This document shows positions 109-30,077 of a stretch of 64,000 nucleotides of DNA, piece by piece; the first letter of the stretch is position 1; every line of letters begins with the position of its first letter. The stretch covers positions 15,081 to 79,080 of the forward strand of contig JAHFHG010000003.1 of NCBI GenBank assembly GCA_023247035.1. The letters are read 5' to 3'. A program made the position numbers and the translations under genes. The DNA is from Candidatus Omnitrophota bacterium. GTDB lineage: Bacteria > Omnitrophota > Omnitrophia > Omnitrophales > Aquincolibacteriaceae. The notes under the pieces were generated by a model, which had not been told where the DNA came from, made no database searches, and worked only from the letters and a program-made list of their open reading frames with translations.

Positions 109-1056
109 ATGCCTACCGGATTTCTTTATGATGCGCGTTATTTGAAGCATCAGACAGGCGCCGGGCATCCCGAATGTCCCGAGCGGCTGGCGGTCACTTT
201 CGATTATTTGAAAGCGCAGCCGTGGTTTAAGGATCTAAAACATTTTTCAGCCCGCCTTGCCGATGAGAAATGGATTCGATCCGTTCATTCAAAAGAATAT
301 ATCCTTCGCGTGAAGCAAGCTTGCGAAAGGGGAAAGCGCTATTTGGATACGCCTGACGTTGGAATCTCTGCGGATTCTTTTGAATGCGCACGATTGGCTG
401 CGGGCGGGGCGCTGGAACTCGCGGATCAAATGATGAGCGGAAACACGACAAATGGATTCGCCCTCTTAAGGCCGCCCGGCCATCACGCCGGAGAAAATTC
501 CGCGATGGGATTTTGCCTTTTCAACAATATCGCGATCCTGGCGCGTTATCTCCAAAAAAAATATGGCTTGGAAAAGATCCTTATTCTGGATTGGGACGTT
601 CATCACGGAAACGGAACCCAGCACACGTTTGAGGAGGATCCGGGCGTATTTTACGTGAGCCTTCATCAATATCCTTTTTATCCCGGTACCGGCGCGGCTT
701 CCGAAACCGGAGTCGGGCGCGGCCGGGGAGCGACCTTGAATTGTCCGATGGCCGCCGGTTCGGGCGATTCCGATTATCAAAAGTCCTTTTCTGAAATTAT
801 CCTTCCCAGGACGGATTTTTTTAAGCCCGACGTGGTCCTGATCTCAGCCGGATTCGACGCGCACGAAAAAGATCCGCTCGGCGGTATTCGTCTTACCACG
901 GAATGTTTTGCCTGGATGAGCCGGCGCATGATTGAAGTCGCAAACAAGTTTTCAAAGAACCGGCTTCTGTCTCTTCTTGAAGGCGGGTACAATCTCGATG
1001 TGCTTCCCGCCTGCATTGCGGCGCACCTGCAAGTCCTAAAAAGTGTTAAAGTGTGA
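109..1056 (+). CDS. Histone deacetylase / acetoin-utilization (AcuC/HDAC) family amidohydrolase
   Basis: 315-aa ORF with HDAC-family signatures: GHHAGENSAMGFCLFNN, metal-binding DWDVHHGNGTQ, and a C-terminal LEGGYN motif. Confidence 0.85.
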   Translation: MPTGFLYDARYLKHQTGAGHPECPERLAVTFDYLKAQPWFKDLKHFSARLADEKWIRSVHSKEYILRVKQACERGKRYLDTPDVGISADSFECARLAAGGALELADQMMSGNTTNGFALLRPPGHHAGENSAMGFCLFNNIAILARYLQKKYGLEKILILDWDVHHGNGTQHTFEEDPGVFYVSLHQYPFYPGTGAASETGVGRGRGATLNCPMAAGSGDSDYQKSFSEIILPRTDFFKPDVVLISAGFDAHEKDPLGGIRLTTECFAWMSRRMIEVANKFSKNRLLSLLEGGYNLDVLPACIAAHLQVLKSVKV

Positions 1057-1128
1057 AAAATCAAGGCGATCTTTTAGAAGCATTCTAGCCTTAAATAGAT
1101 CAAAAAATAAAAATATTAATCAGATGCT

Positions 1129-1156
1129 TTGACTCTAAAATTTTTTTCTATAGAAT
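1129..1156 (+). promoter_or_regulatory. Candidate sigma70-type promoter (TTGACT-N16-TAGAAT) for the secreted paralog gene
   Basis: TTGACT at 1129-1134 and TAGAAT at 1151-1156 with a 16-nt spacer in an AT-rich intergenic region. A 9-bp perfect inverted repeat aactttgaa/ttcaaagtt lies just downstream (about 1165-1191). A purine-rich RBS GGAAGGAG precedes the ATG at 1252. Confidence 0.4.
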
Positions 1157-1251
1157 TACTGCTTAACTTTGAAACCCGGTCATTCAAAGTTTCTTCCACA
1201 GGGCAGCAGTGGAGGAAGAAAAAGGGATAAAGGCCGGAAGGAGCTAAACAA

Positions 1252-2061
1252 ATGTTTAAGTTAGAGAAGTCTCGCAAAGGGCGGGGAATAGGTTTGGGAA
1301 TAATTATGATCGCAGGGATTTTGAGCGCGTCAAGCGTGGTTTTGGCGCAGCAAGCAGGATTTGACCCTCAAAGGTCTCAGGCGTTGTCGGCCTACGAAAA
1401 ACAGTTGAAGGATTTTAGTCTCCAGCTTCAGCAGTCTGAAGAACCGCTGCGCACCTGGCGGTCGATGCTTGATCAGGACAAGGAAAGTGTTCTGAAATTT
1501 GATTCCGAGCTCAAACAAATGGGAACCAATCTTTTGGATGCTCACGGTTATTTAGCTCAGGCGACTCAGCAGCTTATGGATCGCGCGCGCGGGCTGGGGC
1601 ATGGCGAGTTGGCAGACGCCTGGACGAAAGAACTTAGCGGCCAAGAGCAGCAACTGGCGGAATGGCGGAAACAACGTGAAGAGTGGGAGAAATCCGTTCA
1701 GGAATGGATCCATCAAAGACAAGAGTGGAGTGCGCAGCTTGAAAAAAAGTTCCAGGATATTGATACGCTGAAAAAAGAAGTAAGCGGCGCGTTTCAGGAA
1801 ATTGAAAGGGCAAAAACACAGAATAATTGGCAGGACATTCTGAACAGCCTGACCGCCAAACTTGCGGATTTCGGCGGAAGGCTCAGCGCTATGTTCTTTG
1901 AATTACAAGGGTTCAATACGGAACTGACTCAAGGAAGCCAAAATTTGCAAGCCTCTTATGGAGCATTTTCAAAGTGGGCGGAATTCCTTGAAGGGTGGAA
2001 AAAGCTTCTGATCGATTGGGAAAGTCAGATCAGCCAGATGGAAGCCGGAAAGAAAGAATAG
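1252..2061 (+). CDS. Secreted Trp-rich alpha-helical protein, one copy of a roughly 230-aa uncharacterised repeat domain (paralog of the next gene)
   Basis: N-terminal signal peptide (KSRKGRGIGLGIIMIAGILSASSVVLAQQ). The helical domain has regularly spaced conserved Trp/Gln residues (LAEWRKQREEWEKSVQEWIHQRQEWSAQLEKKFQDI...KLADFGGRLS...FLEGWKKLLIDWESQ). It aligns position by position with the domains of ORF 2152..4149. Confidence 0.75.
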   Translation: MFKLEKSRKGRGIGLGIIMIAGILSASSVVLAQQAGFDPQRSQALSAYEKQLKDFSLQLQQSEEPLRTWRSMLDQDKESVLKFDSELKQMGTNLLDAHGYLAQATQQLMDRARGLGHGELADAWTKELSGQEQQLAEWRKQREEWEKSVQEWIHQRQEWSAQLEKKFQDIDTLKKEVSGAFQEIERAKTQNNWQDILNSLTAKLADFGGRLSAMFFELQGFNTELTQGSQNLQASYGAFSKWAEFLEGWKKLLIDWESQISQMEAGKKE

Positions 2062-2151
2062 GCTTCCCTTGGAGTAAAAAATAATCCGATTTTCATTTAT
2101 CTATTCCTTTTTTAATAACAATAACAACCGCAGCGGCGAGGAGCGAACAAA

Positions 2152-4149
2152 ATGTTAATAAGAAACAGTAGAAAGTTAGGTTTGAGTTTGGGAATTATCA
2201 TCGCAGGGATTTTGAGTTTAGGGACCACAGTTTTCGCACAAGAAGAAGGAGCGCAGGAAGGCCAGCAGCAGGAAGCGCCGCCCCAGCCTGAATATCAAGA
2301 ACCCGCTCCGGAACCCACCGCTCCGGCCGAGGTTGCAGCGGCAGCAGCTCCTGCTCCCGCAGAAGCGGCTGCGGTCACAGATGCCTCAGCTCAACAAGAG
2401 TACGAAGCTCAACGCGCGCGCGCCTTGGCCGCTTATGAGCAGCAGGTTCGGGACTTTGAGGCGCAGCTTGGCCAGGCTGAACAGCAGCTTCTCGGCTGGA
2501 AAAACCAGCTTCAAAACGATAAAAATTTTCTTATCAAATTCAATGCCGAACTCCAGCAGCTCGCCGGCGGGCTTAGAGATGCTTATGGGTATTTGGTCCA
2601 GCAAACTCAGCAGCTTATTGAGCGCGCCCGGAAATTAGGAGATAACGATCTGGCTAATGCCTGGGAAAAAGGATTGGGAGATCAGAAGAGCCAATTGGAA
2701 GACTGGGATAAGCGACATCAAGCCTGGACACAGTCCGTTCAGCAATGGACCGGCGAAAGAGAGCAGTGGGGCCTGCAGCTTGATAAGAAGCTCCAGGATA
2801 TTGAGGCGTTGAAAAATGAAGTGCGCAATCTTTTCCAAGAAATTGAAAACGCCCGGACATTGAACGATTGGCAGGGAGTGTTGAACAACTTGAATGGAAA
2901 ACTCGCTGATTTCGGAGGCAGGCTCAGTCAAATTTTCGTCGAGCTTCAAGGTCTCAGCAGCGATTTGGCTCAGGGAAGTAATGAACTGCAAACCGCTTAC
3001 CAGGGTTTCGCTCAGTTGGGCCCGTTCCTTGAAGGTTGGAAGAAGCAATTGGTGGATTGGGATGCCCGGATGAATCAAAGAGAAGCCGGGGGCGGCGCGG
3101 GCGGAAGCAGGGAAAAGGAATCCGTCCAGGCTCCTCCGGGCCGGACCCAGGACAATCCGAGTTGGGAGGATTCTAAAAAACAGCTCCGGGATCTTCAGCA
3201 GATTTTGCAGAATTACAATCGATGGCTCCGTGACTGGAGCGGTGCGCTGAATCAATACCGCGCTGAGCTTCAGAAAGCGGATCAGGAACACAGAGGTCTC
3301 GGCCAGAGTCTCGCCTACGCCAGCCGTGATCTGGTGGCGCAAACAAGGCAGCTTCTTGAGCGTGCAAGGAGAATCGGCGACCGGGATTTCGCTTCGATTT
3401 TGGAAAAAGAACTTTCCTGGCGCGAGCAAGAACTCGCCCATTGGGATCAGAATCAGGAGCAGTGGAGCCGCCAAATCGCGGATGCCGGAAAGCAGCTTGA
3501 TGATTGGGCCAGGGCCCGAGATGAAAAATTTAGGGAAATGGATCAACTGACTCAGGAACTCGACGGGTTGCTCCAACAGATCGAAACAACGAAGGATGTC
3601 GAGGCCTTGGGGAAGGCCTTGCAGGATATTCACGCTAAAATGAATTATTTTACGGACAGAATTCATTCCTTCGCAGCTGAGTTTGAGTCCTTGGGGAACA
3701 ATTTTTCAAGCTGGACCACAACGCTGAACCAGTTTGCCGGCGTATTGAGCAACTGGCAGTATCATTTGGAAAACTGGAAAAAACATTTGGCGGAATGGGA
3801 GAGAGAATTGCAGCAAAGAGAAAGAGGCCAGGTGCCTTCTTCTCAGATCCGTTCGCAGTGGAGGAGCGATCTCGCGCAGTGGCAGTCTCCGCAGTTCAGC
3901 AGTCCGGCGGCAGGCAGGCTGTTTTCTTCGGCATCTTCGCAGCCCATTTCGATGAATCAAGTTAAGAGACAATTTACCTGGCAGAGCCTCATTCAGCAAT
4001 TTCTAGGCGGAAAAAGTCAATCTTCGCTGGGGACGACAGAGGCTGCTTCGACTTTCGGCGGCGCTTCTTCGGCCTCTTCGGCGGCGATGCTTCAGGCCCG
4101 CGTCAGGCAGCTTGAGCAGGAACTTCGCCAGGCGCGAGCCGGCAGTTGA
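2152..4149 (+). CDS. Secreted Trp-rich alpha-helical protein with two tandem copies of the same domain plus a Pro/Ala-rich linker and a Ser-rich C-terminal tail
   Basis: Signal peptide (SRKLGLSLGIIIAGILSLGTTVFAQEE). PAPA-rich low-complexity linker (APPQPEYQEPAPEPTAPAEVAAAAAPAPAEAAA). Domain copy 1 (AYEQQVRDFEAQL...FLEGWKKQLVDWDARMNQREAG) matches gene 1252..2061 residue by residue. A more diverged copy 2 (ILQNYNRWLRDWSG...WQYHLENWKKHLAEWERELQQRE) follows, then a Ser-rich tail. Confidence 0.75.
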   Translation: MLIRNSRKLGLSLGIIIAGILSLGTTVFAQEEGAQEGQQQEAPPQPEYQEPAPEPTAPAEVAAAAAPAPAEAAAVTDASAQQEYEAQRARALAAYEQQVRDFEAQLGQAEQQLLGWKNQLQNDKNFLIKFNAELQQLAGGLRDAYGYLVQQTQQLIERARKLGDNDLANAWEKGLGDQKSQLEDWDKRHQAWTQSVQQWTGEREQWGLQLDKKLQDIEALKNEVRNLFQEIENARTLNDWQGVLNNLNGKLADFGGRLSQIFVELQGLSSDLAQGSNELQTAYQGFAQLGPFLEGWKKQLVDWDARMNQREAGGGAGGSREKESVQAPPGRTQDNPSWEDSKKQLRDLQQILQNYNRWLRDWSGALNQYRAELQKADQEHRGLGQSLAYASRDLVAQTRQLLERARRIGDRDFASILEKELSWREQELAHWDQNQEQWSRQIADAGKQLDDWARARDEKFREMDQLTQELDGLLQQIETTKDVEALGKALQDIHAKMNYFTDRIHSFAAEFESLGNNFSSWTTTLNQFAGVLSNWQYHLENWKKHLAEWERELQQRERGQVPSSQIRSQWRSDLAQWQSPQFSSPAAGRLFSSASSQPISMNQVKRQFTWQSLIQQFLGGKSQSSLGTTEAASTFGGASSASSAAMLQARVRQLEQELRQARAGS

Positions 4150-4154
4150 GAGCT

Positions 4155-4209
4155 AGAAAAAAACCCGGTGAGGTCACATTTCAGTGAAACTTGCCGGGCT
4201 TTTTTTTTA
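4155..4209. terminator. Bidirectional rho-independent terminator between convergent genes
   Basis: A-run (4155-4163), then stem CCCGG...CCGGG around an internal tcac/gtga palindrome, then T9 (4200-4209). It lies between the + gene stop (4149) and the - gene stop (4219), so it reads as hairpin plus U-tract on both strands. Confidence 0.6.
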
Positions 4210-4218
4210 TAACTCAAG

Positions 4219-7200
4219 TTATAATAAATCCAATTGCAGGTTTTTGGGGGAGGCAGCCTTTCCTTTGAAAGAACTCTTCTGTCTCTCCAGAAGTTTTTCT
4301 TCAATGTCCTTTAGAAATGGCGAGGCTTTTTGATCTCTGAAACTTCCTCTCCAAAACCGTTTGTCTGCGTGCGTAAGAAATAAGCGGTCCTTGGCGCGTG
4401 TCATTCCGACGTAAAAAACGCGTCTTTCTTCGGCAAATTCTTCCTGATCTTCAGACGCATCTGCCCATTTCAAGGGGATCAGGCCGTCTTCGCATCCGGC
4501 AATAAATACTACGGGAAACTCGAGGCCTTTGGCGGCGTGCAGCGTCATGAGAGAAACCCGGTCAGAGCGCGCATCCCAAGTGTCCATATCCTGCTCCAGA
4601 CTCATTGCAGACCAAAATAAATTCCAGTTTTCCCCGCACCGCCGGGCGATGGCCTTAAGTTTTTCGAAAATCAATTCTGCTTCGCGTGAAGAAGAAGGGT
4701 CCGGAAGCTTTGATTGGGCGAATGTTAAGCCCTCAAGCAGGCTGGTCTCGTATTCAGTTTTCTGAATTTTGCGCAAGATGCCTTGGACGTTTGAATCGTC
4801 GATGAGCGCCCGGTGGCTGCACCTCTGAAACGGCATTCCCGAACGGGACAAGGCTTCTTCCAGGACGGAAGCCTGCGCCTCGGTCCGGAAAAGAATTGCG
4901 AAATCCGAGAAAGAATAAGGTTTTTCACTTTCTCCTTCCGACCTGCCGGTATCGACTGAAAAAAAAGAAATGCCCCCGATCATTTTCTCGATCCTTTCAA
5001 CGATGAATTCCGCCTCAGCTTTGTCGGAACGCGCCTGATGAATGACCACTTTGCCGGTATCTTCCAGGAAGGCTTCGAGGGCGCGATTTTCGATCAGGCC
5101 GGCGGAGGCCATGACTTGATGGGAAGCCGAAAGGATCGATTGCCCTGAGCGGTAATTTTTGATGAGATGAATTTTTCTAGCGCCGGGAAAATCCTCTTCG
5201 AATCTTAAAAAAAGTTTCACATCGGCTCCGCGAAAACTGTAGATAGCCTGGTCCGGATCGCCGATCGCGCAAAGGTTTGGCTTTTCAGAGACCAGAAGCC
5301 GTATGAGCCGGTACTGCAATTCGTCGATATCCTGATATTCATCAATGGAAATCCAAGGGCGCTTCTTACGATAAGATGCCGCCAGATCAGGATCTTCCCC
5401 AAGCATTTTTACGGGAAGGGCCAGGAGATCGTCATAATCCAGAACGCCATTAATTTCTTTTTCCTTTTCCAGGATTTTCCGGGCGGACTGGATTTCGGGA
5501 TTGGATTCGGATTCTTTAAGCGTTCGTTTCAGGCGGGAAATTTCTTCGAGGATTTTTGAAGCCTTGCGTTCCGCGAGCCCTAAAGAGTTTTTCAGCAAGG
5601 TTTTTCTTTCCTCCTCCCCGGCAATGCGGAATCCACGCGGCAGCCCGGCCGCCTCGCGGTTTTCCTGAAGGAATTGAAATCCAAAGGCGTGAAAAGTAAC
5701 CACGGGAATTTTTGACCAGACGCGGGGGACAAGCGATTTCAACCGCTCCTGCATTTCCTGAGCCGCCCGGCGCGTAAAAGTAATGGTGAGGCACTGCTCG
5801 GGCGGGATCTTATGATTGAGGATCAGGTTGGCGACGCGGTGAGTCAGGACGCGGGTTTTGCCTGAACCCGGGCCGGCGAGGATCAACACAGGCCCGTTTA
5901 GCGTTTCAACGGCTCTTTGTTGATCGGGATCCAGCGTCAGTGAACTTTCCTCTTTACAAATTTTATCGGAGGGAAGAGAGGGAAGCGTGGAAGGGTTTCG
6001 GGCCGGACGAATTTTCTCGTCCTTGCCGGCGGATATTTTTTGAGGACGCGCCGCCGTTTCCTCTCCGGAATCAAATAAAACACGCGCGGTCGTTTTTGCT
6101 TTCAATTCCTTTTCGGTAAAAAGTTTGATCTTTCCGTATTCGCCGTCAAAACCCGCTTCGCGGATCACCTTGCCTTGCCGCATCCGCGAAATAGCCTCTG
6201 TAACGAGAGGCGAGGCGGATTTTCCGATCTCTCCAAGCGGAAGCCCGTTTAAGATTTCAAGCTCCGGCCCTAATTTAGCGAGAAGCTGTTCATGATTCTG
6301 CGCCACAGCTTGGCTCGCCGCGCCGCGGTCCAGAATCTCGGAGATGATTTCCGGCAGCGGAATGAGATTCTTGAAATCACCGGCTTGGCTGGGTTTCTCG
6401 CCTTGAAAACGGTCCGCAAGCTCTTCGACCCGGTACATCACGCCGAGCGTCAGAGGTTTTTTACATTCCGGGCAAATGCCTTGATGAGAACGGCTTTCTT
6501 CGGGCCGGAAGCGCACGCCGCATTTCCGGTGGCCGTCCAGGTGATATTTTCCTTCTTCGGGAAAAAACTCGACGGTCCCCGAAAAGCCTTTTCCGGTTTC
6601 GAGCGCCGAACGGATTGCGAAATAGCTGAGTTCCGTATCGAAAGCGCTCGCCTCGCGGCCCAGCTTTTGTGGGGAATGAGCGTCGGAATTCGAAACGAGC
6701 CGGTAGCGGTCCAGGCTGGAAACCCGCCAATTCATTTCCGGGTCCGAGGACAGCCCCGTTTCAACCGCGAAAATGTGATCCGCCAAATCTCCATAACATT
6801 CGCTGACCGTATCGAAGCCGGATTTCGATCCGAGAACGGAAAACCAGGGTGTCCAGATGTGAGCGGGAACGATGTAGCACTCCGGGCTTGCCTCCAGCAC
6901 GATTTCCAGCAGATGCCTGGAATCGAGCCCTAAAATGGGCCGGCCGTCGGAGCGGATATTTCCGATCTTGGAAAGAGACTTGTTGATCTTCTCCGCGGTT
7001 TCGATTGAAGGCGCGTAAACGAGATGATGGACCTTGCGGGTTTTGTCGCCCTTTTTGTAGATCGTTGAAATTTCCACCGAAAGCATCAAACGTGTCGCGC
7101 CCCGGCAGACCGGCGGAAGTCTCTGAAAGACTTTTTTTTCAAGATCCTCCCGCAAACGGAAGAGGCCCGGCTCGGCGGGGACAAGTTTTTCTTTGATTTC

Positions 7201-7350
7201 ACTCATCCACGCAGGGTGGGTGAAATCGCCCGTTCCGATGACGGTGATTCCTTTTTTGCGTCCCCAGTAAGCCAAATTTTCGAAATCGCAGTCCCGGCTG
7301 GTGGCGCGGGAATATTTGGAATGGATGTGGAGGTCCGCGAAGAAACGCAT
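4219..7350 (-). CDS. Fusion protein: N-terminal PHP-family phosphoesterase with Zn-ribbon (COG1379-like) plus C-terminal UvrD/PcrA/Rep-like SF1 DNA helicase
   Basis: 1043-aa ORF. The N-terminus MRFFADLHIHSKYSRATS...GTGDFTHP is a PHP His-motif. CGVRF...CPEC is a Cys4 ribbon. From about residue 470: DPDQQRAVETLNGPVLILAGPGSGKTRVLTHRVANLI (UvrD Walker A), DEYQD (motif II), and GTDFLSVRFGN... The C-terminal helicase 2B/2A part has GMTRAKDRL. Confidence 0.8.
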   Translation of the reverse strand: MRFFADLHIHSKYSRATSRDCDFENLAYWGRKKGITVIGTGDFTHPAWMSEIKEKLVPAEPGLFRLREDLEKKVFQRLPPVCRGATRLMLSVEISTIYKKGDKTRKVHHLVYAPSIETAEKINKSLSKIGNIRSDGRPILGLDSRHLLEIVLEASPECYIVPAHIWTPWFSVLGSKSGFDTVSECYGDLADHIFAVETGLSSDPEMNWRVSSLDRYRLVSNSDAHSPQKLGREASAFDTELSYFAIRSALETGKGFSGTVEFFPEEGKYHLDGHRKCGVRFRPEESRSHQGICPECKKPLTLGVMYRVEELADRFQGEKPSQAGDFKNLIPLPEIISEILDRGAASQAVAQNHEQLLAKLGPELEILNGLPLGEIGKSASPLVTEAISRMRQGKVIREAGFDGEYGKIKLFTEKELKAKTTARVLFDSGEETAARPQKISAGKDEKIRPARNPSTLPSLPSDKICKEESSLTLDPDQQRAVETLNGPVLILAGPGSGKTRVLTHRVANLILNHKIPPEQCLTITFTRRAAQEMQERLKSLVPRVWSKIPVVTFHAFGFQFLQENREAAGLPRGFRIAGEEERKTLLKNSLGLAERKASKILEEISRLKRTLKESESNPEIQSARKILEKEKEINGVLDYDDLLALPVKMLGEDPDLAASYRKKRPWISIDEYQDIDELQYRLIRLLVSEKPNLCAIGDPDQAIYSFRGADVKLFLRFEEDFPGARKIHLIKNYRSGQSILSASHQVMASAGLIENRALEAFLEDTGKVVIHQARSDKAEAEFIVERIEKMIGGISFFSVDTGRSEGESEKPYSFSDFAILFRTEAQASVLEEALSRSGMPFQRCSHRALIDDSNVQGILRKIQKTEYETSLLEGLTFAQSKLPDPSSSREAELIFEKLKAIARRCGENWNLFWSAMSLEQDMDTWDARSDRVSLMTLHAAKGLEFPVVFIAGCEDGLIPLKWADASEDQEEFAEERRVFYVGMTRAKDRLFLTHADKRFWRGSFRDQKASPFLKDIEEKLLERQKSSFKGKAASPKNLQLDLL

Positions 7351-7731: not shown

Positions 7732-7986
7732 TTGATACGCATTGCGCGAAATGCTGGCATTTATGATCTTACCGAAGTTCATGCCCTCCGGCATACCTTC
7801 GCCAGCCAGCTCTTAATGCGCGGCGTTGACCTTCCTTCCGTTCAAAAACTCATGGGGCATAGCAAAATCGAAACCACGCTGATTTATTCTCATCAAACCA
7901 CAGATCATTTGCGGGATGCTGTGGAAAAACTATCAGCAAACAGGCAATGGATTTCATACGATATCACTCAAAGGAGAAATGAATAA
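7732..7986 (+). pseudogene. Tyrosine recombinase (phage integrase) C-terminal fragment, N-terminal about 250 aa missing
   Basis: 84-aa ORF carrying the catalytic-domain motifs HALRHTFASQLL (His-x-x-Arg box) and GHSKIETTLIYSH (catalytic Tyr). Only about 80 bp separate it from the tRNA, so no room for an N-terminal domain. Confidence 0.7.
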
Positions 7987-8123
7987 TGCTGAAAAGCGCG
8001 ACTTGGGTTTTACTGGCGTCAATACTGCTCACTATGGTCTCGTGTGACAAGCCGATTTAAAAAGTTCAAAACAACGATTGCGTATCAGAATATAGATATC
8101 AATATATACAAAACGTAAATGGT

Positions 8124-8315
8124 GTGTTTGATAAAAAACTCGGGATTATTTTTTACTTAAACAATCCCCCCACTGAATTTGTCGCCATTTCTCCTGTGGA
8201 CGAATATCTTTGGGGAAGAAATCCTGAAGATTTAAGAAAGTTTATCAGTTTAGATCGCGCTGAGACGTGGAAAAAAGGTATGGGTATTGAGGTGCCGGAA
8301 AAAGAAACAAAATAA
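8124..8315 (+). CDS. Hypothetical small protein (island cargo)
   Basis: 63-aa ORF in the AT-rich stretch of the island; no recognisable motif. Confidence 0.25.
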   Translation: MFDKKLGIIFYLNNPPTEFVAISPVDEYLWGRNPEDLRKFISLDRAETWKKGMGIEVPEKETK

Positions 8316-9135
8316 TATTCTAAATTTCTCGCCGTCTGATTCTATTAACCACATTTCATTTTTAAACGAAGTTACGCCTTATGAAAACGTGATTGAAAAA
8401 ATGGCTCAAAAAATCTATATGCCAGGCATCAACAAGATTAATTCGTTTATGGATTTGAAAGGTGCCAGAATGTGCTCGCAATTGGGTTTGTCATACGATC
8501 GCACAACATTGATCAATGTGCTTCTCGGATTGATGGAGAAAGATGAAATTCCGGAGGTTTGGAAGAAGAAAATTATTGATTTGATTTTTGTGTTCGACAA
8601 ATATGGACGCAAACCGTCGCATAAAGCGGATTTTTCGAAACTTTTCAAATATGAGTTATCGAGCGTTGATTACTATCACGAAAGGGCTGGAGAAATCTTG
8701 CGCAGAAATAGGTCGAAAGAAAAATCGCTCAAAGATTTGATAGCAAACGCCAAAAGCGGAAAGCCTCATTTGAAAGATAAAGCATTGTACCGCTTAATCG
8801 CGATTGATCCGCGTTGGCTTTACGATGACTGGATTCAAGAGCGAGTCGTTGATGCTTGCAATTCGGGAAACCGTTTCTTTCTACAAAGCTTGGGGGATGC
8901 CCTTTCCAAAGCCGCAAAAGCGTTTATCCCTATTCCGAGAAAAGATTCACGGGCTGATACAGTAATCAAATATTTAAAGAGGAAGGGACGATTAAACATC
9001 CTGCCGCGAAAATTAAAACAATTATCAAAAGAAATTGACACTATAGCAGACCTGAACGCCGATATTTCCCCAAATAATCTAGCCAAAATTCTTAAAAGGT
9101 ATAACCTCCGTTCTAGAATCCATCGAGATTTATAG
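8287..9135 (+). CDS. Hypothetical protein (island cargo, AT-rich; likely true start near 8401, MAQKIYMPG)
   Basis: 282-aa ORF, Lys-rich and markedly more AT-rich than flanking DNA. A strong terminator follows. No recognisable domain. Confidence 0.5.
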   Translation: MRCRKKKQNNILNFSPSDSINHISFLNEVTPYENVIEKMAQKIYMPGINKINSFMDLKGARMCSQLGLSYDRTTLINVLLGLMEKDEIPEVWKKKIIDLIFVFDKYGRKPSHKADFSKLFKYELSSVDYYHERAGEILRRNRSKEKSLKDLIANAKSGKPHLKDKALYRLIAIDPRWLYDDWIQERVVDACNSGNRFFLQSLGDALSKAAKAFIPIPRKDSRADTVIKYLKRKGRLNILPRKLKQLSKEIDTIADLNADISPNNLAKILKRYNLRSRIHRDL

Positions 9136-9149
9136 CCTTCCTTAAAAAA

Positions 9150-9184
9150 GGACACAACTTTCGTATTTTTGTGTCCCTTTTTTG
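9150..9184 (+). terminator. Rho-independent terminator
   Basis: GGACACAA-loop(ctttcgtattt)-TTGTGTCC followed by a T-run, immediately after the stop at 9135. Confidence 0.7.
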
Positions 9185-9210
9185 AACTCGTCCTTGTTTA
9201 AAATGCTCCT

Positions 9211-9528
9211 ATGGCGAAACAAGTGATGAGGCGTGATTCTTCCGATCCAAGTATCTGCATTTCAGAAATCCAACTTTTCCCTATAAAACCCCACAAGAGC
9301 CTTGTCGGGTTTGCCTCCTGCGTTCTCAATGGGCAAGTTTATATCGGCGGTATCGCGCTTCATTGCGACCTTGCAAATCAATCCTTCCGCTGTGTCTATC
9401 CCACGAAGAAATTCAGAGACGGCAAAGAAATGCCTATCTATCACCCGATCACCAGGGAGGCAGGCGAAGCTATCCAAAAGGCCATTGTAACGGAATGGGA
9501 AAATTTGATTAAACGGGAATATTTTTAA
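9211..9528 (+). CDS. SpoVG-like protein
   Basis: 105 aa; matches the SpoVG pattern: ISEIQLFPIKPHKSLVGFASCVLNGQVYIGGIALHCD...YPTKKFRDGKEMPIYHPITREAGEAIQKAIVTEW. Compare SpoVG TDVRLRRV...[20 protein letters not shown]...[23 protein letters not shown]. Confidence 0.55.
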   Translation: MAKQVMRRDSSDPSICISEIQLFPIKPHKSLVGFASCVLNGQVYIGGIALHCDLANQSFRCVYPTKKFRDGKEMPIYHPITREAGEAIQKAIVTEWENLIKREYF

Positions 9529-9551
9529 TTTTATTTAAAAAGTGGTGAAGC

Positions 9552-9878
9552 ATGGGAAGTCAAAAGCGAAAAAAAGGCAAGCACCGGGATTTTGTGGCAT
9601 TTTTAAGACCTCTGCTTGATTCGCCGGAATGGCTTGATCTTTCAAATTCGGCAAAGCTTGCCTATCTTTATTTCAAAAAGGCCTACGTCGGCCACAACAA
9701 CGGCGAAATCAAACTCTATTACAGCCAAATGGGCAAGGTCCTTAAATCATCCGCAACTTTCAGCAAAGCGATCAAGGAGCTCGAAAACAAGAACTGGATC
9801 AAAACTGAAAATCAAGGCGGACTTTTCAAAAGGGCGTCCACTTACAGTCTTACTTTTCTTCATGACAGATTCCGGTAA
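9552..9878 (+). CDS. Hypothetical basic protein (possible winged-helix DNA-binding/replication-associated protein of the island)
   Basis: 108-aa ORF with a Lys-rich N-terminus; no firm motif. Confidence 0.35.
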   Translation: MGSQKRKKGKHRDFVAFLRPLLDSPEWLDLSNSAKLAYLYFKKAYVGHNNGEIKLYYSQMGKVLKSSATFSKAIKELENKNWIKTENQGGLFKRASTYSLTFLHDRFR

Positions 9879-10020
9879 GGGGATGGCAAATATTTAGAAT
9901 ATCTTTGCAATTTGAAGCTGAGTTTGTGCGGAAAACCGGCAGACAGGTTCAAAAAATAAAGCTGGAAGTGCGGTCCAGGGATTGATTGGCTTTAATTTTT
10001 GAAGTGGGCAACTTTAAAAA

Positions 10021-10596
10021 ATGAAGGTGCTTCTGATGGAAGAAGACAACGAATTACAACAAAGGCAAACGCTTTCATTGAATGATTTGAATGAAAAGGA
10101 GCGGCAAGCCGTTGAAATGCGGTATTTGGGCAAGACCTCTCAGGAGATTGGAGAGGCAACCGGCTATAACGATGTTTATGTCCGCAATCTATTTATGCAG
10201 GGCGGCCGGCTTGAAAAGGCGTACCGGGACTTCGCGCATATTCAGCAAGGCTTAGCACAGGAAAAGGTGGCTTCCGCCTTAAATCGAGCAAGAGAAGAAG
10301 CCCTAAGCGCCATTGAGCGTATTATCGCTCTTTCAAAAGATGCCAGCAATGAAGCGGCCATTTTCAAGGCAAATGAATTTTTGCTCAGCGTGGCAGGTGT
10401 TAACGCTCAAGTCACCTTGCGGACCTTTCTTCTCAACAAGTCTTATGAGCACGCCTGCAAACTCGTTGATGACACCTTTAAAGACCTCTACGGCAAGACA
10501 ATCCGCGACAGCGCGGGCAAAATGACACTTGTGGAGCTTGCCAAGCAGTTTAGTGATTTAGGAAGGGGCGAAGCAAATCAAATGGATGGAAATTAG
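10021..10596 (+). CDS. HTH DNA-binding protein (sigma-70 region-4 / LuxR-type helix-turn-helix)
   Basis: 191 aa; the N-terminal ERQAVEMRYLGKTSQEIGEATGYNDVYVRN resembles a sigma-70 r4/ECF-type HTH; the rest is helical. Confidence 0.45.
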   Translation: MKVLLMEEDNELQQRQTLSLNDLNEKERQAVEMRYLGKTSQEIGEATGYNDVYVRNLFMQGGRLEKAYRDFAHIQQGLAQEKVASALNRAREEALSAIERIIALSKDASNEAAIFKANEFLLSVAGVNAQVTLRTFLLNKSYEHACKLVDDTFKDLYGKTIRDSAGKMTLVELAKQFSDLGRGEANQMDGN

Positions 10597-10602
10597 CGCG
10601 AA

Positions 10603-10809
10603 GTGGAAAAGTTTTTGACTCCGAAGCAGTTAAGCGAGTTTTTGCAGGTCGACCTTTCGACGGTCTATCTTTGGACTCATACGGAGTTTATCCCGCATTA
10701 CAAGCTTGGCCGCTCGGTTCGGTTTCTCGAAGGTGATGTTTTGGAATGGCTTCGGAAGCGGAAATTCCAAGGACGGATGACTTTAAAGTATGAAGTAAAC
10801 AGACTTTGA
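10603..10809 (+). CDS. Excisionase / AlpA-family HTH DNA-binding protein
   Basis: 68 aa; LTPKQLSEFLQVDLSTVYLWTHTEFIPHYKLGRSVRFLEGDVLEWL is a typical Xis/AlpA (MerR-like) HTH_17 signature. Confidence 0.65.
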   Translation: MEKFLTPKQLSEFLQVDLSTVYLWTHTEFIPHYKLGRSVRFLEGDVLEWLRKRKFQGRMTLKYEVNRL

Positions 10810-10894
10810 AAAGGCAGCAAGATACGCCCGACTTTTCTGCACCTAATTGCATTTTAGTCTTGACTTTTCGGCAGTTTGCTTCAATATAGCCAAC

Positions 10895-12013
10895 ATGAAA
10901 CGAAGCCTCGAAGCACTTATCAAGAAAGACTTGGATAAGAAGATAGTCCTCCTGAGCGGACCCCGCCAGGTGGGGAAAACCACCCTTGCCAAAGCCCTTT
11001 ATCCAAAGACCGCCGAGTATTTTAATATCGACAGCGAAGAACACCGATTGCTGATCAAGAAAACTGCTTGGCGGCGGGACTGCGAGCTAGTGATTTTTGA
11101 CGAACTCCACAAACTGAAGAAATGGAAGAACTGGATCAAGGGGATTTATGATACCGAAGGAGTACGGCCAAGACTTCTTGTAACAGGTTCGGCGAGGATG
11201 GATGCCTATCGAAAAGGAGGCGATTCTCTGGCAGGTCGTTTTTTTTCATACAGACTGCATCCTTGTTCGGTTGCTGAGGTAAAAGATAAATACCAGGCAG
11301 ATGAGGCGTTGGAAAGAATTTTACGGTTCGGCGGTTTCCCGGAGCCATTTCTTAGGGGCAACGAAGCGGCTGCAAAACGTTGGCGGCGTTCCCATGCGGA
11401 CCGTATTTTGCGTGAAGATTTGCGTGATATTGCTTCAATCCGTGATTTGAAGGGGATTGAAACGCTCGTTGAAATGCTTCGCCGTTCGGTGAGCAGCACA
11501 GTTTCCTACGAATCACTGAGTAGAGATTTGCAGACCTCTCCCCACACGGCTAAAAACTGGATACATATGCTTGAAAACCTCTATATCCTTTTTGTGGTAA
11601 CGCCTTATTCTCACAATATTGCCCGGAGTCTGCTCAAGGCACCCAAGGTCTATTTTTATGACACGGGTTTTGTTAAGGATGATCCCGGAGCAAGATTTGA
11701 AAATGCGGTGGCTTGTGCTCTTCTTAAACGGCTGCACTTTTTAGAGGATACGGAGGGAGAAAAATGTTCTCTTCACTATGTTAGGGACAAGGAAAAAAGA
11801 GAAGTTGATTTTCTCACCATCCGGGAAGGGAAACCCGAATTTTTAATTGAAACCAAAGTCGCCAACCCCGATATAGCTCATCTAAAACATTTTTCGAGAT
11901 CATTAGGTAGAGTAAAACCGATTCTCCTCGCCAGAGAACTCAAACGTGAAATTCAGTTGGAAGGCGTTCCAATCAAAAAGGCGAGTCATTGGCTACAAGG
12001 TCTTGAGGCTTGA
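10895..12013 (+). CDS. AAA+ ATPase (AAA_14 / DUF4143 family)
   Basis: Walker A LLSGPRQVGKTTLAKAL near the N-terminus (start taken at MKRSLEAL), Walker B-like LVIFDELH, and the C-terminal DUF4143-like segment REVDFLTIREGKPEFLIETK. Confidence 0.75.
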   Translation: MKRSLEALIKKDLDKKIVLLSGPRQVGKTTLAKALYPKTAEYFNIDSEEHRLLIKKTAWRRDCELVIFDELHKLKKWKNWIKGIYDTEGVRPRLLVTGSARMDAYRKGGDSLAGRFFSYRLHPCSVAEVKDKYQADEALERILRFGGFPEPFLRGNEAAAKRWRRSHADRILREDLRDIASIRDLKGIETLVEMLRRSVSSTVSYESLSRDLQTSPHTAKNWIHMLENLYILFVVTPYSHNIARSLLKAPKVYFYDTGFVKDDPGARFENAVACALLKRLHFLEDTEGEKCSLHYVRDKEKREVDFLTIREGKPEFLIETKVANPDIAHLKHFSRSLGRVKPILLARELKREIQLEGVPIKKASHWLQGLEA

Positions 12014-12176
12014 AAGCCAAGTTATATTTTTGGGACCAAATTGGGACCAAAGAAATTCAAACTCCATCAAACGCAATCGATGCTATCGGAACAGTAGAAA
12101 GCACGAAACGCTTGATAAATCAGGCGACTTCGCGCATCATATTCAAAATGCGGGAGTTGTGAAAATCCGATTTTAA

Positions 12177-12199
12177 GAATCCTCTACTCCCCACCAGTT
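12177..12199 (+). repeat. attR: second copy of the 23-bp tRNA-Tyr 3'-end direct repeat
   Basis: gaatcctctactccccaccagtt, identical to 7630-7652. Confidence 0.8.
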
Positions 12200-12498
12200 C
12201 TGCGAATCCACTTAATCATCGGGCTGCACTCAAGCAGGCAAAAACCAAGACTCACCCAAACACTCACCAATTAAAATAGAATCGGTTAAACAAATCCGTC
12301 CTTTTTTGTTCATGCGTTAATCGCCCCGCTGCCCATGATTTGAATCGGCGCCGGTGAATTTGGAAAAATATTACGATCCGAAGCAAGAGTCCAAATCGAA
12401 GAGCAAGAGGACTTGAGCGCGAATCCGGATTTTCTTTCCGTCGGATACATTCTCTCCGGAGCCGTTCCATTCGGGGCTTGTGAGCCAGTCGCGGCCTT

Positions 12499-12786
12499 GT
12501 GTCCCTGCTGATTATTCCGGCCGTCACCGGAAGCGCGGCCGCCAAGATTGAGGAATTGAATCACAAAGAAAATAGGCTAAAAATCGCGGCCGTTTTTTTG
12601 GAAAATCATCCCGAGCTATTAAGACAAATCCCGAATATTGAGGATATGATTCGGTTTGACGGCCGGCCTCGAATTCTTTTTGTGGATCAGAAGATGCTCG
12701 CCCTTGCCGCTGATTATTTTGTCCGCGCAGAAGTCCGCTTTAAAAAAGTTAAAATGGAAAACGAAAAAGCGCAATTCAAGGCTTAA
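12499..12786 (+). CDS. Hypothetical protein
   Basis: 95-aa ORF in a low-coding-density stretch after attR; no motif recognised. Confidence 0.25.
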   Translation: MSLLIIPAVTGSAAAKIEELNHKENRLKIAAVFLENHPELLRQIPNIEDMIRFDGRPRILFVDQKMLALAADYFVRAEVRFKKVKMENEKAQFKA

Positions 12787-29640: not shown

Positions 29641-30077
29641 TGCCGGACTCTTTTGAACAATTGCATATTGGGCAAGAGTCGGTATTTTCGCACCGGATTA
29701 CTGATGAGGATGTGAAGAAGTTCGTTGAGTTGACCGGCGATACGAACCCTTTGCATTTGGATGATCTATTTGCCGTTCAACGGTCTTTTGAGAAACGCGT
29801 TGTCCACGGCATGCTGACAGCTTCCTTTGTCTCCACGGTGATTGGGACTCTTCTGCCGGGTCCGGGTTCGCTATGGTACGAGCATTCTTTCCGGTTCTTA
29901 AAGCCTGTTTATGTGGGACAAACGATTCAAGTTCATGTCCGGGTCCGTCACAAATCGAATGCCCAACGAGTGGTCGTGCTGGACGTTCACGTTTATGGGG
30001 AAGGAAACCACGTGGTTGTGGAGGGAGAGGCAAAAGTTAAAGTGTTGAACCCATTTAAAATTGAGGCGGCGCCATGA
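29637..30077 (+). CDS. MaoC-like (R)-specific hydratase/dehydratase (hot-dog fold)
   Basis: 146 aa; MaoC signature GDTNPLHLDDLFA...HGML. Confidence 0.75.
   Translation: MMPDSFEQLHIGQESVFSHRITDEDVKKFVELTGDTNPLHLDDLFAVQRSFEKRVVHGMLTASFVSTVIGTLLPGPGSLWYEHSFRFLKPVYVGQTIQVHVRVRHKSNAQRVVVLDVHVYGEGNHVVVEGEAKVKVLNPFKIEAAP

What the first reader, a model, noticed from the sequence alone, without database searches (positions are those of the whole stretch)
1252..4149. Tandem paralogs of secreted Trp-rich helical proteins built from a novel roughly 230-aa repeat domain (one copy, then two copies)
Both proteins start with near-identical signal peptides. They share a long domain with strictly spaced W/Q/E residues (e.g. 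...AWxKxLxxQxxxLxxWxKxxxxWxxSVQxWxxxxExWxxQLxKKxQDIxxLKxEVxxxFQEIExAxTxNxWQxxLNxLxxKLADFGGRLS...FLEGWKKxLxDW...). The first gene has one copy. The second has a PAPA-rich linker, one close copy, one diverged copy and a Ser-rich tail. I do not recognise the fold or family; the pattern resembles exchangeable apolipoprotein or phasin-like amphipathic helices but with a secretion signal. Gene duplication plus intragenic domain duplication, and a strong promoter, suggest an abundant envelope or extracellular structural, coat or S-layer-associated protein family.
Basis: seen in the sequence. Interest (0 to 1): 0.6.

Follow-up and report, generated by a model that had tools for sequence, protein, structure and literature searches.

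The report
Exported tryptophan-ladder three-helix-bundle paralogs
Two neighbouring genes encode exported, rod-shaped proteins built from one and two copies of a very rare, unclassified three-helix domain that other uncultured bacteria use as the outside-facing part of membrane-bound cyclase signalling enzymes; what it does is still unknown.

Summary
ORFs 1252..2061 (269 aa) and 2152..4149 (665 aa) share an approximately 231-aa domain, one copy and then two (52% and 32% identity; z = 27-61 against shuffles). Both start with Sec-type export signals.

AlphaFold2 models each copy as three helices of about 70 residues (pLDDT 85). The heptads are uninterrupted, and tryptophans occupy one core position, forming a ladder on helices 2 and 3.

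No Pfam, NCBIfam, PHROG, PADLOC, PDB-sequence, PDB-fold or viral-fold match is significant. Only generic coiled-coil noise appears.

An exhaustive profile search of 1.84 billion representative proteins found about 13 real relatives, all from metagenomes:
- Five are short secreted proteins.
- One is anchored by a TM helix and a Pro/Ala-rich linker.
- Seven are class III adenylate/guanylate cyclases followed by a TM helix, a Pro/Ala linker and this domain.

So this is a new, very rare extracytoplasmic helical-bundle domain family.

My best reading is a non-enzymatic rod or recognition module on the outer face of the inner membrane or in the periplasm of a diderm. This part is inferred, not shown. 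The apolipoprotein/phasin resemblance is not supported. The abundant coat or S-layer idea is untested and somewhat disfavoured. Interest is moderate.

The parts
1129..1156 (+). Sigma-70-like promoter candidate (TTGACT, 16 nt, TAGAAT) with an A/T-rich stretch upstream, 96 nt before the ATG of gene 1
   Evidence: 10 of 12 matches. Four sites were found in the stretch scanned (window 900-4400) against 2.0 +/- 1.5 expected, so it is plausible by position only. Sequence read.
1236..1243 (+). Shine-Dalgarno-like GGAAGGAG, 8 nt before the ATG of gene 1
   Evidence: Read directly from the sequence.
1252..2061 (+). Gene 1: 269-aa exported protein (P0001) made of an export signal plus one domain copy
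   Evidence: The identical protein is found on three independent metagenome contigs.
1252..1347 (+). Export signal of protein 1 (aa 1-32: MFKLEKSRKGRG / IGLGIIMIAGILSASSVV / LA, then Q). It is either a cleavable Sec signal or, given the 18-20-residue hydrophobic core, possibly a signal anchor.
   Evidence: Read from the sequence. There is no Cys, so no lipobox, and no twin-Arg motif. No signal-peptide predictor was available.
1360..2052 (+). Domain copy W1 (protein 1 aa 37-267): three helices spanning aa 39-114, 118-187 and 193-266
   Evidence: AF2 model with mean pLDDT 85.2 and pTM 0.62; alignments A1 and A2; heptad and Trp columns.
2138..2143 (+). Shine-Dalgarno-like GAGGAG, 8 nt before the ATG of gene 2. 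No terminator-like site was found in the 90-nt spacer.
   Evidence: Sequence read; no terminator in the spacer. Co-transcription with gene 1 is inferred.
2152..4149 (+). Gene 2: 665-aa exported protein with signal, PA-rich linker, two domain copies, Ser/Gln-rich tail and a terminal helix
2152..2238 (+). Export signal of protein 2 (aa 1-29, ending ...TTVFA, then QEEG)
   Evidence: Read from the sequence. It is 60% identical to the signal of protein 1.
2239..2400 (+). Pro/Ala/Glu/Gln-rich linker (aa 30-83), predicted disordered
   Evidence: Composition of 31% Ala, 17% Pro, pI 4.05; pLDDT below 50. The same kind of linker follows the TM helix in P0007 and in the cyclase-linked relatives.
2401..3093 (+). 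Domain copy W2 (protein 2 aa 84-314), 52% identical to W1
   Evidence: Modelled helices are 75-161, 165-234 and 240-313.
3136..3831 (+). Domain copy W3 (protein 2 aa 329-560), 32% identical to W1 and 27% to W2
   Evidence: Modelled helices are 336-407, 411-479 and 483-557.
3832..4146 (+). Ser/Gln-rich basic tail (aa 561-665). It is mostly low-confidence or disordered and ends in a helix at aa 640-664 (nt 4069-4143).
   Evidence: Composition of 21% Ser, pI 11.8; pLDDT below 50 for aa 583-641 and a helix at 640-664.
4154..4209 (.). Strong hairpin flanked by an A-run and a U-run, lying between the convergent gene 2 and the PHP-UvrD gene. It is a likely bidirectional intrinsic terminator.
   Evidence: RNA fold of -27.6 kcal/mol, z = -4.86, with 0 of 200 shuffles as stable.

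Best explanation
The two genes are a diverged tandem duplication. They encode exported, non-enzymatic rod proteins built from a previously unclassified extracytoplasmic domain of about 225 aa.

Shown:
- Each domain copy is predicted to be an antiparallel bundle of three helices of about 70 residues. That length is roughly 10 nm, which I estimate from the helix length.
- The heptads are unbroken, and Trp fills one core position heptad after heptad on helices 2 and 3.
- These Trp columns are the best-conserved columns of the whole family.
- The same domain is the C-terminal, outside-facing part of single-pass class III adenylate/guanylate cyclases, laid out as cyclase, TM helix, Pro/Ala-rich linker, domain. 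It also occurs in a cyclase-less TM-anchored protein and in a few short secreted proteins.

Inferred:
- After Sec export, both proteins sit on the outer face of the inner membrane or in the periplasm of a diderm, probably an Omnitrophota-like bacterium. They are either cleaved or held by their long signal-anchor-like N-termini.
- Protein 1 would be a single rod.
- Protein 2 would be a flexible Pro/Ala tether, two rods in series and a disordered basic Ser/Gln tail with a terminal helix. That is long enough in principle to reach across much of a periplasm.
- The module most likely acts by binding or self-association, not by catalysis. The conserved Trp-rich, membrane-distal half would recognise a partner in the envelope, either a protein or a glycan.
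- In the cyclase fusions, that same event would be coupled to dimerisation-dependent cNMP synthesis.
- The stand-alone paralogs here would then be a scaffold or spacer, or soluble partners of such a recognition system.
For: Architecture and homology:
- (z = 27-61; z = 11-18 for distant relatives, even with heptad-phase-preserving shuffles).

Fold:
- three helices at 3-78, 82-151 and 157-230 of the domain, pLDDT 85.
- two such units in protein 2, with the linker and tail disordered.
- Gly, Asp and Pro cluster at the two predicted turns across the family.

Heptad core and Trp ladder:
- hydrophobic columns run 9 to 58, 88 to 151 and 161 to 224 in exact multiples of 7, and the Trp columns lie on them.
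- the six best-conserved columns are all Trp.

Relatives:
- 33 hits at E <= 1e-3 among 1.84 billion representatives, 13 of them spanning the full domain.
- PF00211 at E down to 3.5e-18 in six cyclase-linked relatives.
- sequences showing TM helices and PA-rich linkers.
- P0007 is a genuine cyclase-less anchored form.
- a cyclase-linked member lies in a tight row with an HD-domain gene.

No catalytic or known family signature:
-.

Diderm host:
- Outer-membrane and export genes in the window.
- Best matches of the neighbouring helicase are Omnitrophota.

Real coding genes:
-.

Expression signals:
-.
Against: - No experiment and no functionally characterised relative exists, so the function rests on architecture alone.
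- The monomeric three-helix fold-back is an AF2 prediction from shallow alignments (3 and 8 sequences). An extended intermolecular coiled coil cannot be excluded.
- I had no model coordinates, so whether the Trp residues are buried or exposed was judged only from the heptad register.
- The higher conservation of the distal third is marginal (permutation p = 0.07).
- Gene neighbourhoods of the relatives are not conserved: GGDEF, receiver, PIG-L, DoxX/PEP-CTERM, PMSR/Wzy. Context gives no firm functional link.
- The window holds no cyclase-linked paralog.
- Signal-peptide cleavage and final location are not established.
- The host phylum rests on a single neighbouring protein.
Confidence: 0.5

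Rival explanations
1. One reading: they are abundant structural proteins of the envelope or cell surface (coat, sheath or S-layer-associated) that self-assemble from rods.
For: - A well-placed promoter-like site, good Shine-Dalgarno sequences and a very strong terminator.
- Duplication of both the gene and the domain.
- Rod-like helical bundles. The nearest fold matches include the elongated three-helix-bundle surface receptor of trypanosomes (5hu6, TM 0.54).
- A large exopolysaccharide cluster lies in the same window, and envelope-polysaccharide genes lie near two relatives.
Against: - No SLH, anchoring, PEP-CTERM or other sorting or assembly domain was found (the C-terminus read).
- The family is extremely rare and patchy.
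- More than half of its members are ectodomains of signalling enzymes.
- Expression level is not measured. The promoter match is not statistically distinctive.
- The EPS cluster is 9 kb away, beyond an opposite-strand helicase gene and a low-GC island.
Confidence: 0.2
2. They are exchangeable, lipid- or membrane-binding amphipathic-helix proteins (apolipoprotein, phasin or I-BAR-like). The bundle would open or dock onto a membrane or vesicle surface in the periplasm.
For: - Weak fold resemblance to I-BAR/IMD domains (2ykt TM 0.55; 1y2o, 2d1l) among the top Foldseek matches.
- Trp is a typical membrane-interface residue, and the helices are long and amphipathic.
Against: - No Foldseek match reaches E <= 1e-3.
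- No apolipoprotein, phasin or LEA family appears even at E <= 10.
- The periodicity is a strict 3-4 heptad forming a narrow core stripe, not the 11/22-mer pattern of exchangeable apolipoproteins.
- The domains are very hydrophilic (GRAVY -0.84 to -1.12) and acidic.
Confidence: 0.1
3. They are secreted effectors or alpha-helical toxins of a host-dependent or predatory bacterium (ClyA/Hbl/Nhe-like or a translocator-like helical bundle).
For: - Exported elongated helical bundles.
- Three family members touch the Bacillus_HBL model weakly (best E = 0.0023).
- Protein 1 touches NheA at E = 0.62.
- The host may be an Omnitrophota-like organism.
Against: - The matches are far below the cut-offs and are shared with dozens of coiled-coil families.
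- There is no hydrophobic hairpin or tongue anywhere in the mature proteins.
- No dedicated secretion system or partner toxin genes lie nearby.
- The same domain is tethered to the producer's own membrane in the cyclase fusions.
Confidence: 0.07
4. It is not a real feature: the ORFs or their similarity are an artefact of Gln/Glu/Leu-rich low-complexity, coiled-coil-like sequence.
For: - Many sub-threshold hits to unrelated coiled-coil families.
- A long antisense ORF (2635..3666, 343 aa) lies inside gene 2.
Against: - Similarity is 11-58 sd above heptad-phase-preserving shuffles.
- Alignments are nearly gapless over the full length, with the same domain boundaries in distant relatives.
- Codon-position divergence is typical of coding sequence.
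- The identical protein is found in three assemblies.
Confidence: 0.01

Closest known systems
Extracytoplasmic helical-bundle sensor domains of bacterial receptors (4HB_MCP/TarH, the HBM domain, and the TorS periplasmic sensor, PDB 3o1h)
   Same: Both are all-helical, elongated, extracytoplasmic modules attached through a membrane span to a cytoplasmic signalling output. TorS appears among the top Foldseek matches (prob 0.98, TMq 0.40). In this family the output is a class III cyclase.
   Different: - There is no significant sequence or fold match.
- This domain has three helices, an odd number. It is therefore C-terminal to a single TM helix and ends away from the membrane. The known sensors are inserted between two TM helices.
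- The cyclase lies N-terminal to the membrane span, the reverse of the usual order.
- The known families do not have a heptad Trp ladder.
- The window proteins carry no output domain at all.
Elongated three-helix-bundle surface proteins (Trypanosoma haptoglobin-haemoglobin receptor, PDB 5hu6/4x0j/4e40) and a designed three-helix bundle (4tql)
   Same: A single chain folds into three long antiparallel helices forming a rod of about 10 nm, displayed outside the cytoplasmic membrane. TM-scores are 0.33-0.54.
   Different: These matches are eukaryotic or synthetic, with 10-15% identity and E >= 5.7e-3, so this is a shape resemblance only. There is no evidence of common descent or of ligand type.
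I-BAR / IMD domains (IRSp53 2ykt and 1y2o; MIM 2d1l)
   Same: Helical bundles of similar length (about 230-250 aa), with TM up to 0.55.
   Different: I-BAR domains are cytoplasmic, eukaryotic dimers that bind membranes through basic ends. The domains here are acidic (pI about 5), exported, and have no sequence match.
Exchangeable apolipoproteins, phasins and LEA proteins
   Same: Helical, hydrophilic and amphipathic sequences rich in Gln, Glu and Lys.
   Different: There is no family match even at E <= 10. The periodicity is heptad rather than 11/22-mer. Export signals are present, and Trp-rich core positions are conserved.
Pfam DUF6674 (PF20379)
   Same: The closest relative P0002 aligns over nearly the whole model (residues 40-238 to positions 35-224 of 251) at 25.6 bits, E = 1.1e-5.
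   Different: The score is below the 28.5-bit cut-off. None of the other 14 domain sequences, including the three in this window, matches it. I treat it as helical-repeat noise until a profile-profile test says otherwise.

Membership tests
Exchangeable apolipoprotein / apolipophorin-III / phasin / LEA families | Significant match to the family profile (Pfam apolipoprotein, ApoLp-III, phasin or LEA models) | tested here: not met
   hmmscan against Pfam-A at E <= 10 lists none of them for either protein, nor among the families matched by the 15 domain sequences.
Exchangeable apolipoprotein / apolipophorin-III / phasin / LEA families | 11/22-residue amphipathic-helix periodicity with a broad apolar face | tested here: not met
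   Conserved hydrophobic columns follow an unbroken 3-4 heptad for 7-9 heptads in each helix. The domains have GRAVY of -0.84 to -1.12.
S-layer or surface-coat proteins | A recognised anchoring or assembly module (SLH, a PEP-CTERM or other sorting signal, an S-layer family domain) | tested here: not met
   No such Pfam or NCBIfam hit. The C-terminus of protein 2 is a Ser/Gln-rich tail plus an amphipathic helix, with no PEP motif, TM helix or basic tail arrangement.
S-layer or surface-coat proteins | High abundance and self-assembly into a lattice | not testable with these tools
   This needs proteomics or transcriptomics of the source community and in vitro assembly or cryo-ET.
Sec-exported (type I signal peptide) proteins | Positively charged n-region, hydrophobic h-region, and small residues at -3/-1 before the cleavage site; no lipobox; no twin-arginine motif | tested here: inconclusive
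   All these features can be read in both N-termini (VLA then Q; VFA then Q; no Cys). However, the h-regions are 18-21 residues, which is TM-like. No SignalP-type predictor was available, so a cleaved signal and a signal anchor cannot be told apart.
New family: Trp-ladder three-helix-bundle ectodomain (shared with class III cyclase fusions P0003-P0006, P0011, P0012, P0032) | Full-length, single-stretch profile match with the same domain boundaries | tested here: met
   hmmsearch of the three-copy profile gives P0002 at 3e-32 and P0003 at 2.4e-15, falling to P0032 at 9.7e-4. All cover profile positions of about 6 to 217-228. Pairwise z = 11-27 against shuffles.
New family: Trp-ladder three-helix-bundle ectodomain (shared with class III cyclase fusions P0003-P0006, P0011, P0012, P0032) | Conserved Trp at heptad core positions on helices 2 and 3, and Gly/Asp/Pro at the two turns | tested here: met
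   W33, W102, W123, W157, W206 and W213 are present in 10-14 of 15 sequences. The six best-conserved columns are all Trp. The turns lie at positions 79-85 and 152-157.
New family: Trp-ladder three-helix-bundle ectodomain (shared with class III cyclase fusions P0003-P0006, P0011, P0012, P0032) | Extracytoplasmic location (after a signal peptide or a TM helix, often through a Pro/Ala-rich linker) | tested here: met
   This can be read in every member. The cyclase domain N-terminal to the TM helix is confirmed as PF00211. The topology itself is inferred, not measured.
Helical-bundle receptor sensor domains (4HB_MCP, HBM, TorS-type) | Significant profile or fold match, and insertion between two TM helices | tested here: not met
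   No Pfam hit. TorS 3o1h matches only at E = 2.2e-2, TMq 0.40. The domain is C-terminal to a single TM helix.
Alpha-helical pore-forming toxins (ClyA / Hbl / Nhe) | Family profile match, and a hydrophobic hairpin or tongue for membrane insertion | tested here: not met
   NheA at E = 0.62, 8.9 bits against a cut-off of 500. Bacillus_HBL has a best E of 0.0023 in 3 of 15 members. No hydrophobic segment occurs in the mature proteins.
Pfam DUF6674 (PF20379) | Score at or above the gathering threshold of 28.5 bits | tested here: not met
   Only P0002 matches, at 25.6 bits. The window proteins and the other members do not match.

The most novel reading that the evidence does not exclude
The domain is a new class of extracytoplasmic recognition or sensor module.

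Its heptad-spaced Trp ladder has a repeat of roughly 10.5 A by my estimate. That is about the length of a beta-1,4 disaccharide repeat. The ladder would bind an envelope polymer (a peptidoglycan or exopolysaccharide strand) or a partner protein.

In the cyclase fusions, this binding would control cNMP synthesis from outside the cell. The stand-alone secreted paralogs in this window would act as soluble co-receptors, decoys or periplasm-spanning rulers for the same ligand.
Probability: 0.15. Interest if true: 0.6.

Novelty: new variant of a known kind. Interest (0 to 1): 0.35.

Why it matters
If the reading holds, this defines a new extracytoplasmic domain family with three features:
- an unusual structural signature, a conserved tryptophan ladder in a long three-helix bundle;
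- a direct link to second-messenger signalling, as the outside-facing module of single-pass class III cyclases arranged in the unusual order cyclase, TM helix, ectodomain;
- occurrence so far only in uncultured environmental bacteria.

It would add one entry to the small catalogue of bacterial periplasmic sensor or recognition folds. It would also give a handle on what such cyclases sense.

For this window alone the practical value is modest. The result is two better-described hypothetical proteins of an Omnitrophota-like MAG, and the family is very rare.

Tried and rejected
Searches that found nothing:
- The word-indexed search of 5.8 billion proteins, run with protein 1, with the three-copy alignment and with the 15-member alignment. 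It returned only the query itself, plus P0010 and P0034. It did not even return the 665-aa paralog, whose exact sequence is not in that collection.
- Pattern scans with A1 of the species-representative genomes, the JGI metagenomes and the viral contigs. A2 was too divergent to scan with.
- Pfam, NCBIfam, PHROGs and PADLOC gave only sub-threshold hits to SMC, Rad50, JetC, LmuB, tape-measure, myosin and tropomyosin-type coiled coils.
- PDB sequence profiles gave partial coiled-coil hits only.
- Foldseek against PDB and BFVD gave nothing at E <= 1e-3.
- Rfam on 1000-4300 gave nothing.
- The literature searches found nothing about this family.

Tools that were not available:

Ideas considered and rejected:
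- DUF6674 as the family. Only P0002 touches it, and it scores below the cut-off.
- Synteny with the PHP-UvrD neighbour. An HMM of the family found no copy in 80 related loci from other lineages.
- A conserved gene neighbourhood for the relatives. Signalling genes (GGDEF, receiver, PilZ, HD) and envelope-polysaccharide genes recur, but not consistently enough to call.
- A significant concentration of conservation at the membrane-distal tip. It is only a trend, p = 0.07.
- The antisense ORF 2635..3666. I treat it as a by-product of codon composition.

Full report
**1. The observation**

BLASTP of the first protein against the second gives two independent full-length matches, E = 6e-82 and E = 4e-32. 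I cut out three domain copies:
- W1: protein 1 aa 37-267
- W2: protein 2 aa 84-314
- W3: protein 2 aa 329-560

These align with a single 3-column gap. W1 is 52% identical to W2 and 32% to W3, with 49 invariant columns.

Such Gln/Glu/Leu-rich helical sequences can look alike by composition, so I compared Smith-Waterman scores with shuffles. The three pairs lie 27-61 sd above plain shuffles. They lie 25-58 sd above shuffles that keep each residue in its heptad phase.

The tryptophans are at strict heptad spacing. Protein 1 has W124, 138, 145, 152, 159 and W242, 249, 256.

The remaining regions of protein 2 are as described:
- The Pro/Ala-rich linker is aa 30-83 (31% Ala, 17% Pro).
- The Ser-rich tail is aa 561-665 (21% Ser, pI 11.8).

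- The signal peptides are 60% identical, not near-identical.
- The 'strong promoter' is one 10-of-12 sigma-70-like match at 1129-1156. Four such sites were found in the 3.5-kb stretch scanned (window 900-4400), against 2.0 +/- 1.5 expected by chance.

**2. Are these real genes?**

- The identical 269-aa protein is encoded on three independent metagenome contigs with the same neighbours. Those contigs are 99.8-99.9% identical to the window.
- In the 24.9-kb assembly L001, gene 1 is identical. Gene 2 differs there by four bases, with one conservative amino-acid change, I16V.
- Between the paralogs, codon positions 1+2 are more alike than position 3 (identity 0.69 vs 0.48 for W1-W2).
- Both genes have Shine-Dalgarno-like sequences 8 nt before the ATG.
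- No terminator-like site was found in the 90-nt spacer between them.
- A very stable hairpin follows gene 2, flanked by an A-run and a U-run (-27.6 kcal/mol, z = -4.9). It faces the convergent helicase gene.
- No Rfam family matches the leader or the spacer.
- The 343-aa antisense ORF inside gene 2 has no support. I regard it as a by-product of composition.

**3. Fold**

AlphaFold2 on W1 with only the three-copy alignment gives three long helices, at domain residues 3-78, 82-151 and 157-230. Mean pLDDT is 85.2 and pTM is 0.62.

The full-length model of protein 2 has mean pLDDT 69.7. It shows:
- two such units (helices 75-161, 165-234, 240-313 and 336-407, 411-479, 483-557);
- a disordered N-terminal linker, a disordered linker between the domains and a low-confidence tail;
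- a terminal helix at 640-664.

In the 15-sequence family alignment, the conserved hydrophobic columns follow an unbroken 3-4 pattern. They run 9 to 58, 88 to 151 and 161 to 224, each an exact multiple of seven. The Trp columns lie on that same stripe. Gly, Asp and Pro cluster at the two predicted turns.

So the tryptophans occupy one core heptad position, repeat after repeat, on helices 2 and 3. When subfamilies are weighted equally, the six best-conserved columns are all Trp: W213, W109, W88, W206, W116 and W102.

The membrane-distal third is more conserved than the rest, but only marginally so (p = 0.07).

I had no access to model coordinates. Burial of the Trp side chains is therefore inferred from the register and was not measured.

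**4. Known families**

No curated family reaches its cut-off:
- Pfam and NCBIfam return only weak hits to myosin, tropomyosin, SMC, Rad50 and similar coiled coils.
- PHROGs returns tape-measure helices, and PADLOC returns JetC/LmuB arms.
- PDB sequence profiles give partial coiled-coil hits.
- Foldseek has no hit at E <= 1e-3 in PDB or BFVD.

The nearest shapes are a designed three-helix bundle (4tql), I-BAR/IMD domains (TM up to 0.55), the trypanosome haptoglobin-haemoglobin receptor (TM 0.54) and the TorS sensor.

No apolipoprotein, phasin or LEA model appears. The heptad periodicity also argues against that kind of helix.

P0002 touches DUF6674 just below threshold, but no other member does.

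**5. Relatives**

The fast searches found only the query itself. Pattern scans of species genomes, JGI metagenomes and viral contigs found nothing.

The exhaustive HMMER search of 1.84 billion cluster representatives gave 33 hits at E <= 1e-3. Thirteen of them, counting the query protein itself, are single-stretch matches over the full domain. The rest are repeat or coiled-coil proteins.

The real relatives fall into three architectures:
- Short secreted proteins like those here: P0002 (E = 3e-32), P0008, P0010 and P0013, plus P0034 found later.
- P0007: a TM helix, a Pro/Ala-rich linker and the domain. It is a genuine 311-aa gene on a 143-kb contig.
- Seven proteins of about 405-488 aa. In six of them the N-terminal domain was scanned and confirmed as a class III adenylate/guanylate cyclase (PF00211, E down to 3.5e-18). 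In P0032 it was read from the sequence. A TM helix, a Pro/Ala-rich linker and the domain at the very C-terminus follow.

Pairwise scores between the window copies and these relatives are 11-27 sd above heptad-preserving shuffles. All clusters are singletons or pairs, and none carries a name.

The domain is therefore always placed outside the cytoplasmic membrane. In most members it is tethered to that membrane.

**6. Context**

Gene neighbourhoods are not conserved.
- In the window, the pair lies between a histone-deacetylase-family gene and a convergent PHP-UvrD helicase gene.
- Homologs of that helicase in 80 other genomes have no copy of the domain nearby.
- P0002 follows a GGDEF-domain gene.
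- P0008 and P0013 follow a receiver-domain gene.
- P0003 has a PilZ gene on its contig.
- P0012 lies in a tight row between a DUF6901 gene and an HD-domain gene.
- P0005 and P0007 have Wzy/BacA genes, or PEP-CTERM and glycosyltransferase genes, a few kb away.
- The window carries a roughly 50-kb polysaccharide cluster from 13.5 kb onward.

Signalling and envelope-polysaccharide themes recur, but the numbers are too small to say more.

The outer-membrane and export genes show that the host is a diderm. The helicase's best matches are Omnitrophota (66% and 59%), which suggests the phylum but does not establish it.

**7. Explanation**

What is shown: a diverged tandem duplication encodes exported, all-helical proteins without a catalytic signature. 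They are made of a new domain that other bacteria use as the ectodomain of single-pass cyclases.

What is inferred:
- The domain is a rod of about 10 nm, a length I estimate from the helix length.
- It acts by binding or self-association at the outer face of the inner membrane or in the periplasm.
- In the cyclase fusions this event would regulate the dimerisation-dependent catalytic domain.
- Here, protein 1 (one rod) and protein 2 (a tether, two rods and a basic disordered tail with a terminal helix) would act as a scaffold or spacer, or as soluble partners of such a system.

I give this 0.5. Most of the uncertainty lies in the functional part.

The rivals:
- Abundant coat or S-layer protein, 0.2. 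The expression signals and the rod shape speak for it. Against it are the rarity of the family, the lack of any anchoring domain and the signalling relatives.
- Membrane- or lipid-binding amphipathic bundle, 0.1.
- Secreted toxin or effector, 0.07.
- Artefact, 0.01.

**8. Novelty and verdict**

The fold type, an elongated three-helix bundle, is known, and so is the general idea of a helical extracytoplasmic module. Several things are new in the databases I could search:
- the sequence family itself;
- its heptad Trp ladder;
- its odd-helix, C-terminal, single-TM arrangement behind a cyclase.

I rate it a new variant of a known kind, of moderate interest (0.35).

Noticed in passing
window 13058-62000 (+ strand): A polysaccharide export and biosynthesis cluster of about 50 kb, almost all on one strand. 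Its genes include:
- an EpsL/BBP2-like outer-membrane protein (13571-14806)
- Poly_export/SLBB (14806-15402)
- a Wzz plus tyrosine-kinase fusion (15403-17226)
- Wzy_C plus TPR (17286-19289)
- GFO-Hexapep, DegT and UDP-GlcNAc 2-epimerase genes, and a flippase
- an FkbH-domain protein (30074-31867) and an AlgX-like SGNH protein
- a B12-radical SAM enzyme (48187-49734) and a C-methyltransferase
- glycosyltransferases and Polysacc_synt_2 (59972-61891)

Several large ORFs in it have no family (24588-25910, 26813-27940, 34636-36150, 46695-48071).
   Followed up: partly
window 7732-12500: A truncated phage-integrase C-terminal fragment (7732-7986) is followed by a low-GC stretch (0.40 against about 0.50). 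That stretch holds unassigned ORFs (8287-9135, 10021-10596) and an AAA_14/DUF4143 ATPase (10847-12013). It looks like the remnant of a mobile island between the helicase gene and the polysaccharide cluster.
   Followed up: partly
window 4219-7350 (- strand): A 1043-aa gene for a PHP-like N-terminal region fused to a UvrD helicase. Full-length relatives at 47-66% identity occur across Omnitrophota, Binatia, Sorangium, many Actinomycetes, Endomicrobia and Gastranaerophilales. That is a wide and patchy distribution for a fused architecture.
   Followed up: partly
L095 4351-7024 and L096 2039-4712: A cyclase-linked relative (P0012) sits in a tight row: a DUF6901 gene overlaps its start, and an HD/HD_4-domain gene begins 3 nt after its stop. 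This suggests a small second-messenger synthesis and degradation module attached to this ectodomain.
   Followed up: no
L004 1-1275; L007 144-1883; L009 209-2582: Stand-alone secreted relatives lie just downstream of signalling genes. P0002 follows the end of a GGDEF (RYGGEEF) gene by 115 nt. P0008 and P0013 follow a single-domain receiver gene, and a conserved 78-aa ORF comes after them.
   Followed up: partly
window 2146-2151 vs L001 10894-10899: The only indel between the window and the 24.9-kb assembly in this region is one A in the run just before the ATG of gene 2 (AACAAA vs AACAA). It changes the Shine-Dalgarno-to-start spacing by one base.
   Followed up: no
window 2635-3666 (- strand): A 343-aa antisense ORF lies entirely inside gene 2. 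It has no homology support and is probably a by-product of the CAG/GAG/CTG-rich coding strand.
   Followed up: partly
window 1157-1251: The 96-nt leader of gene 1 contains an inverted repeat (AACTTTGAA ... TTCAAAGTT, around 1165-1192). No Rfam family matches it, and I did not fold it.
   Followed up: no
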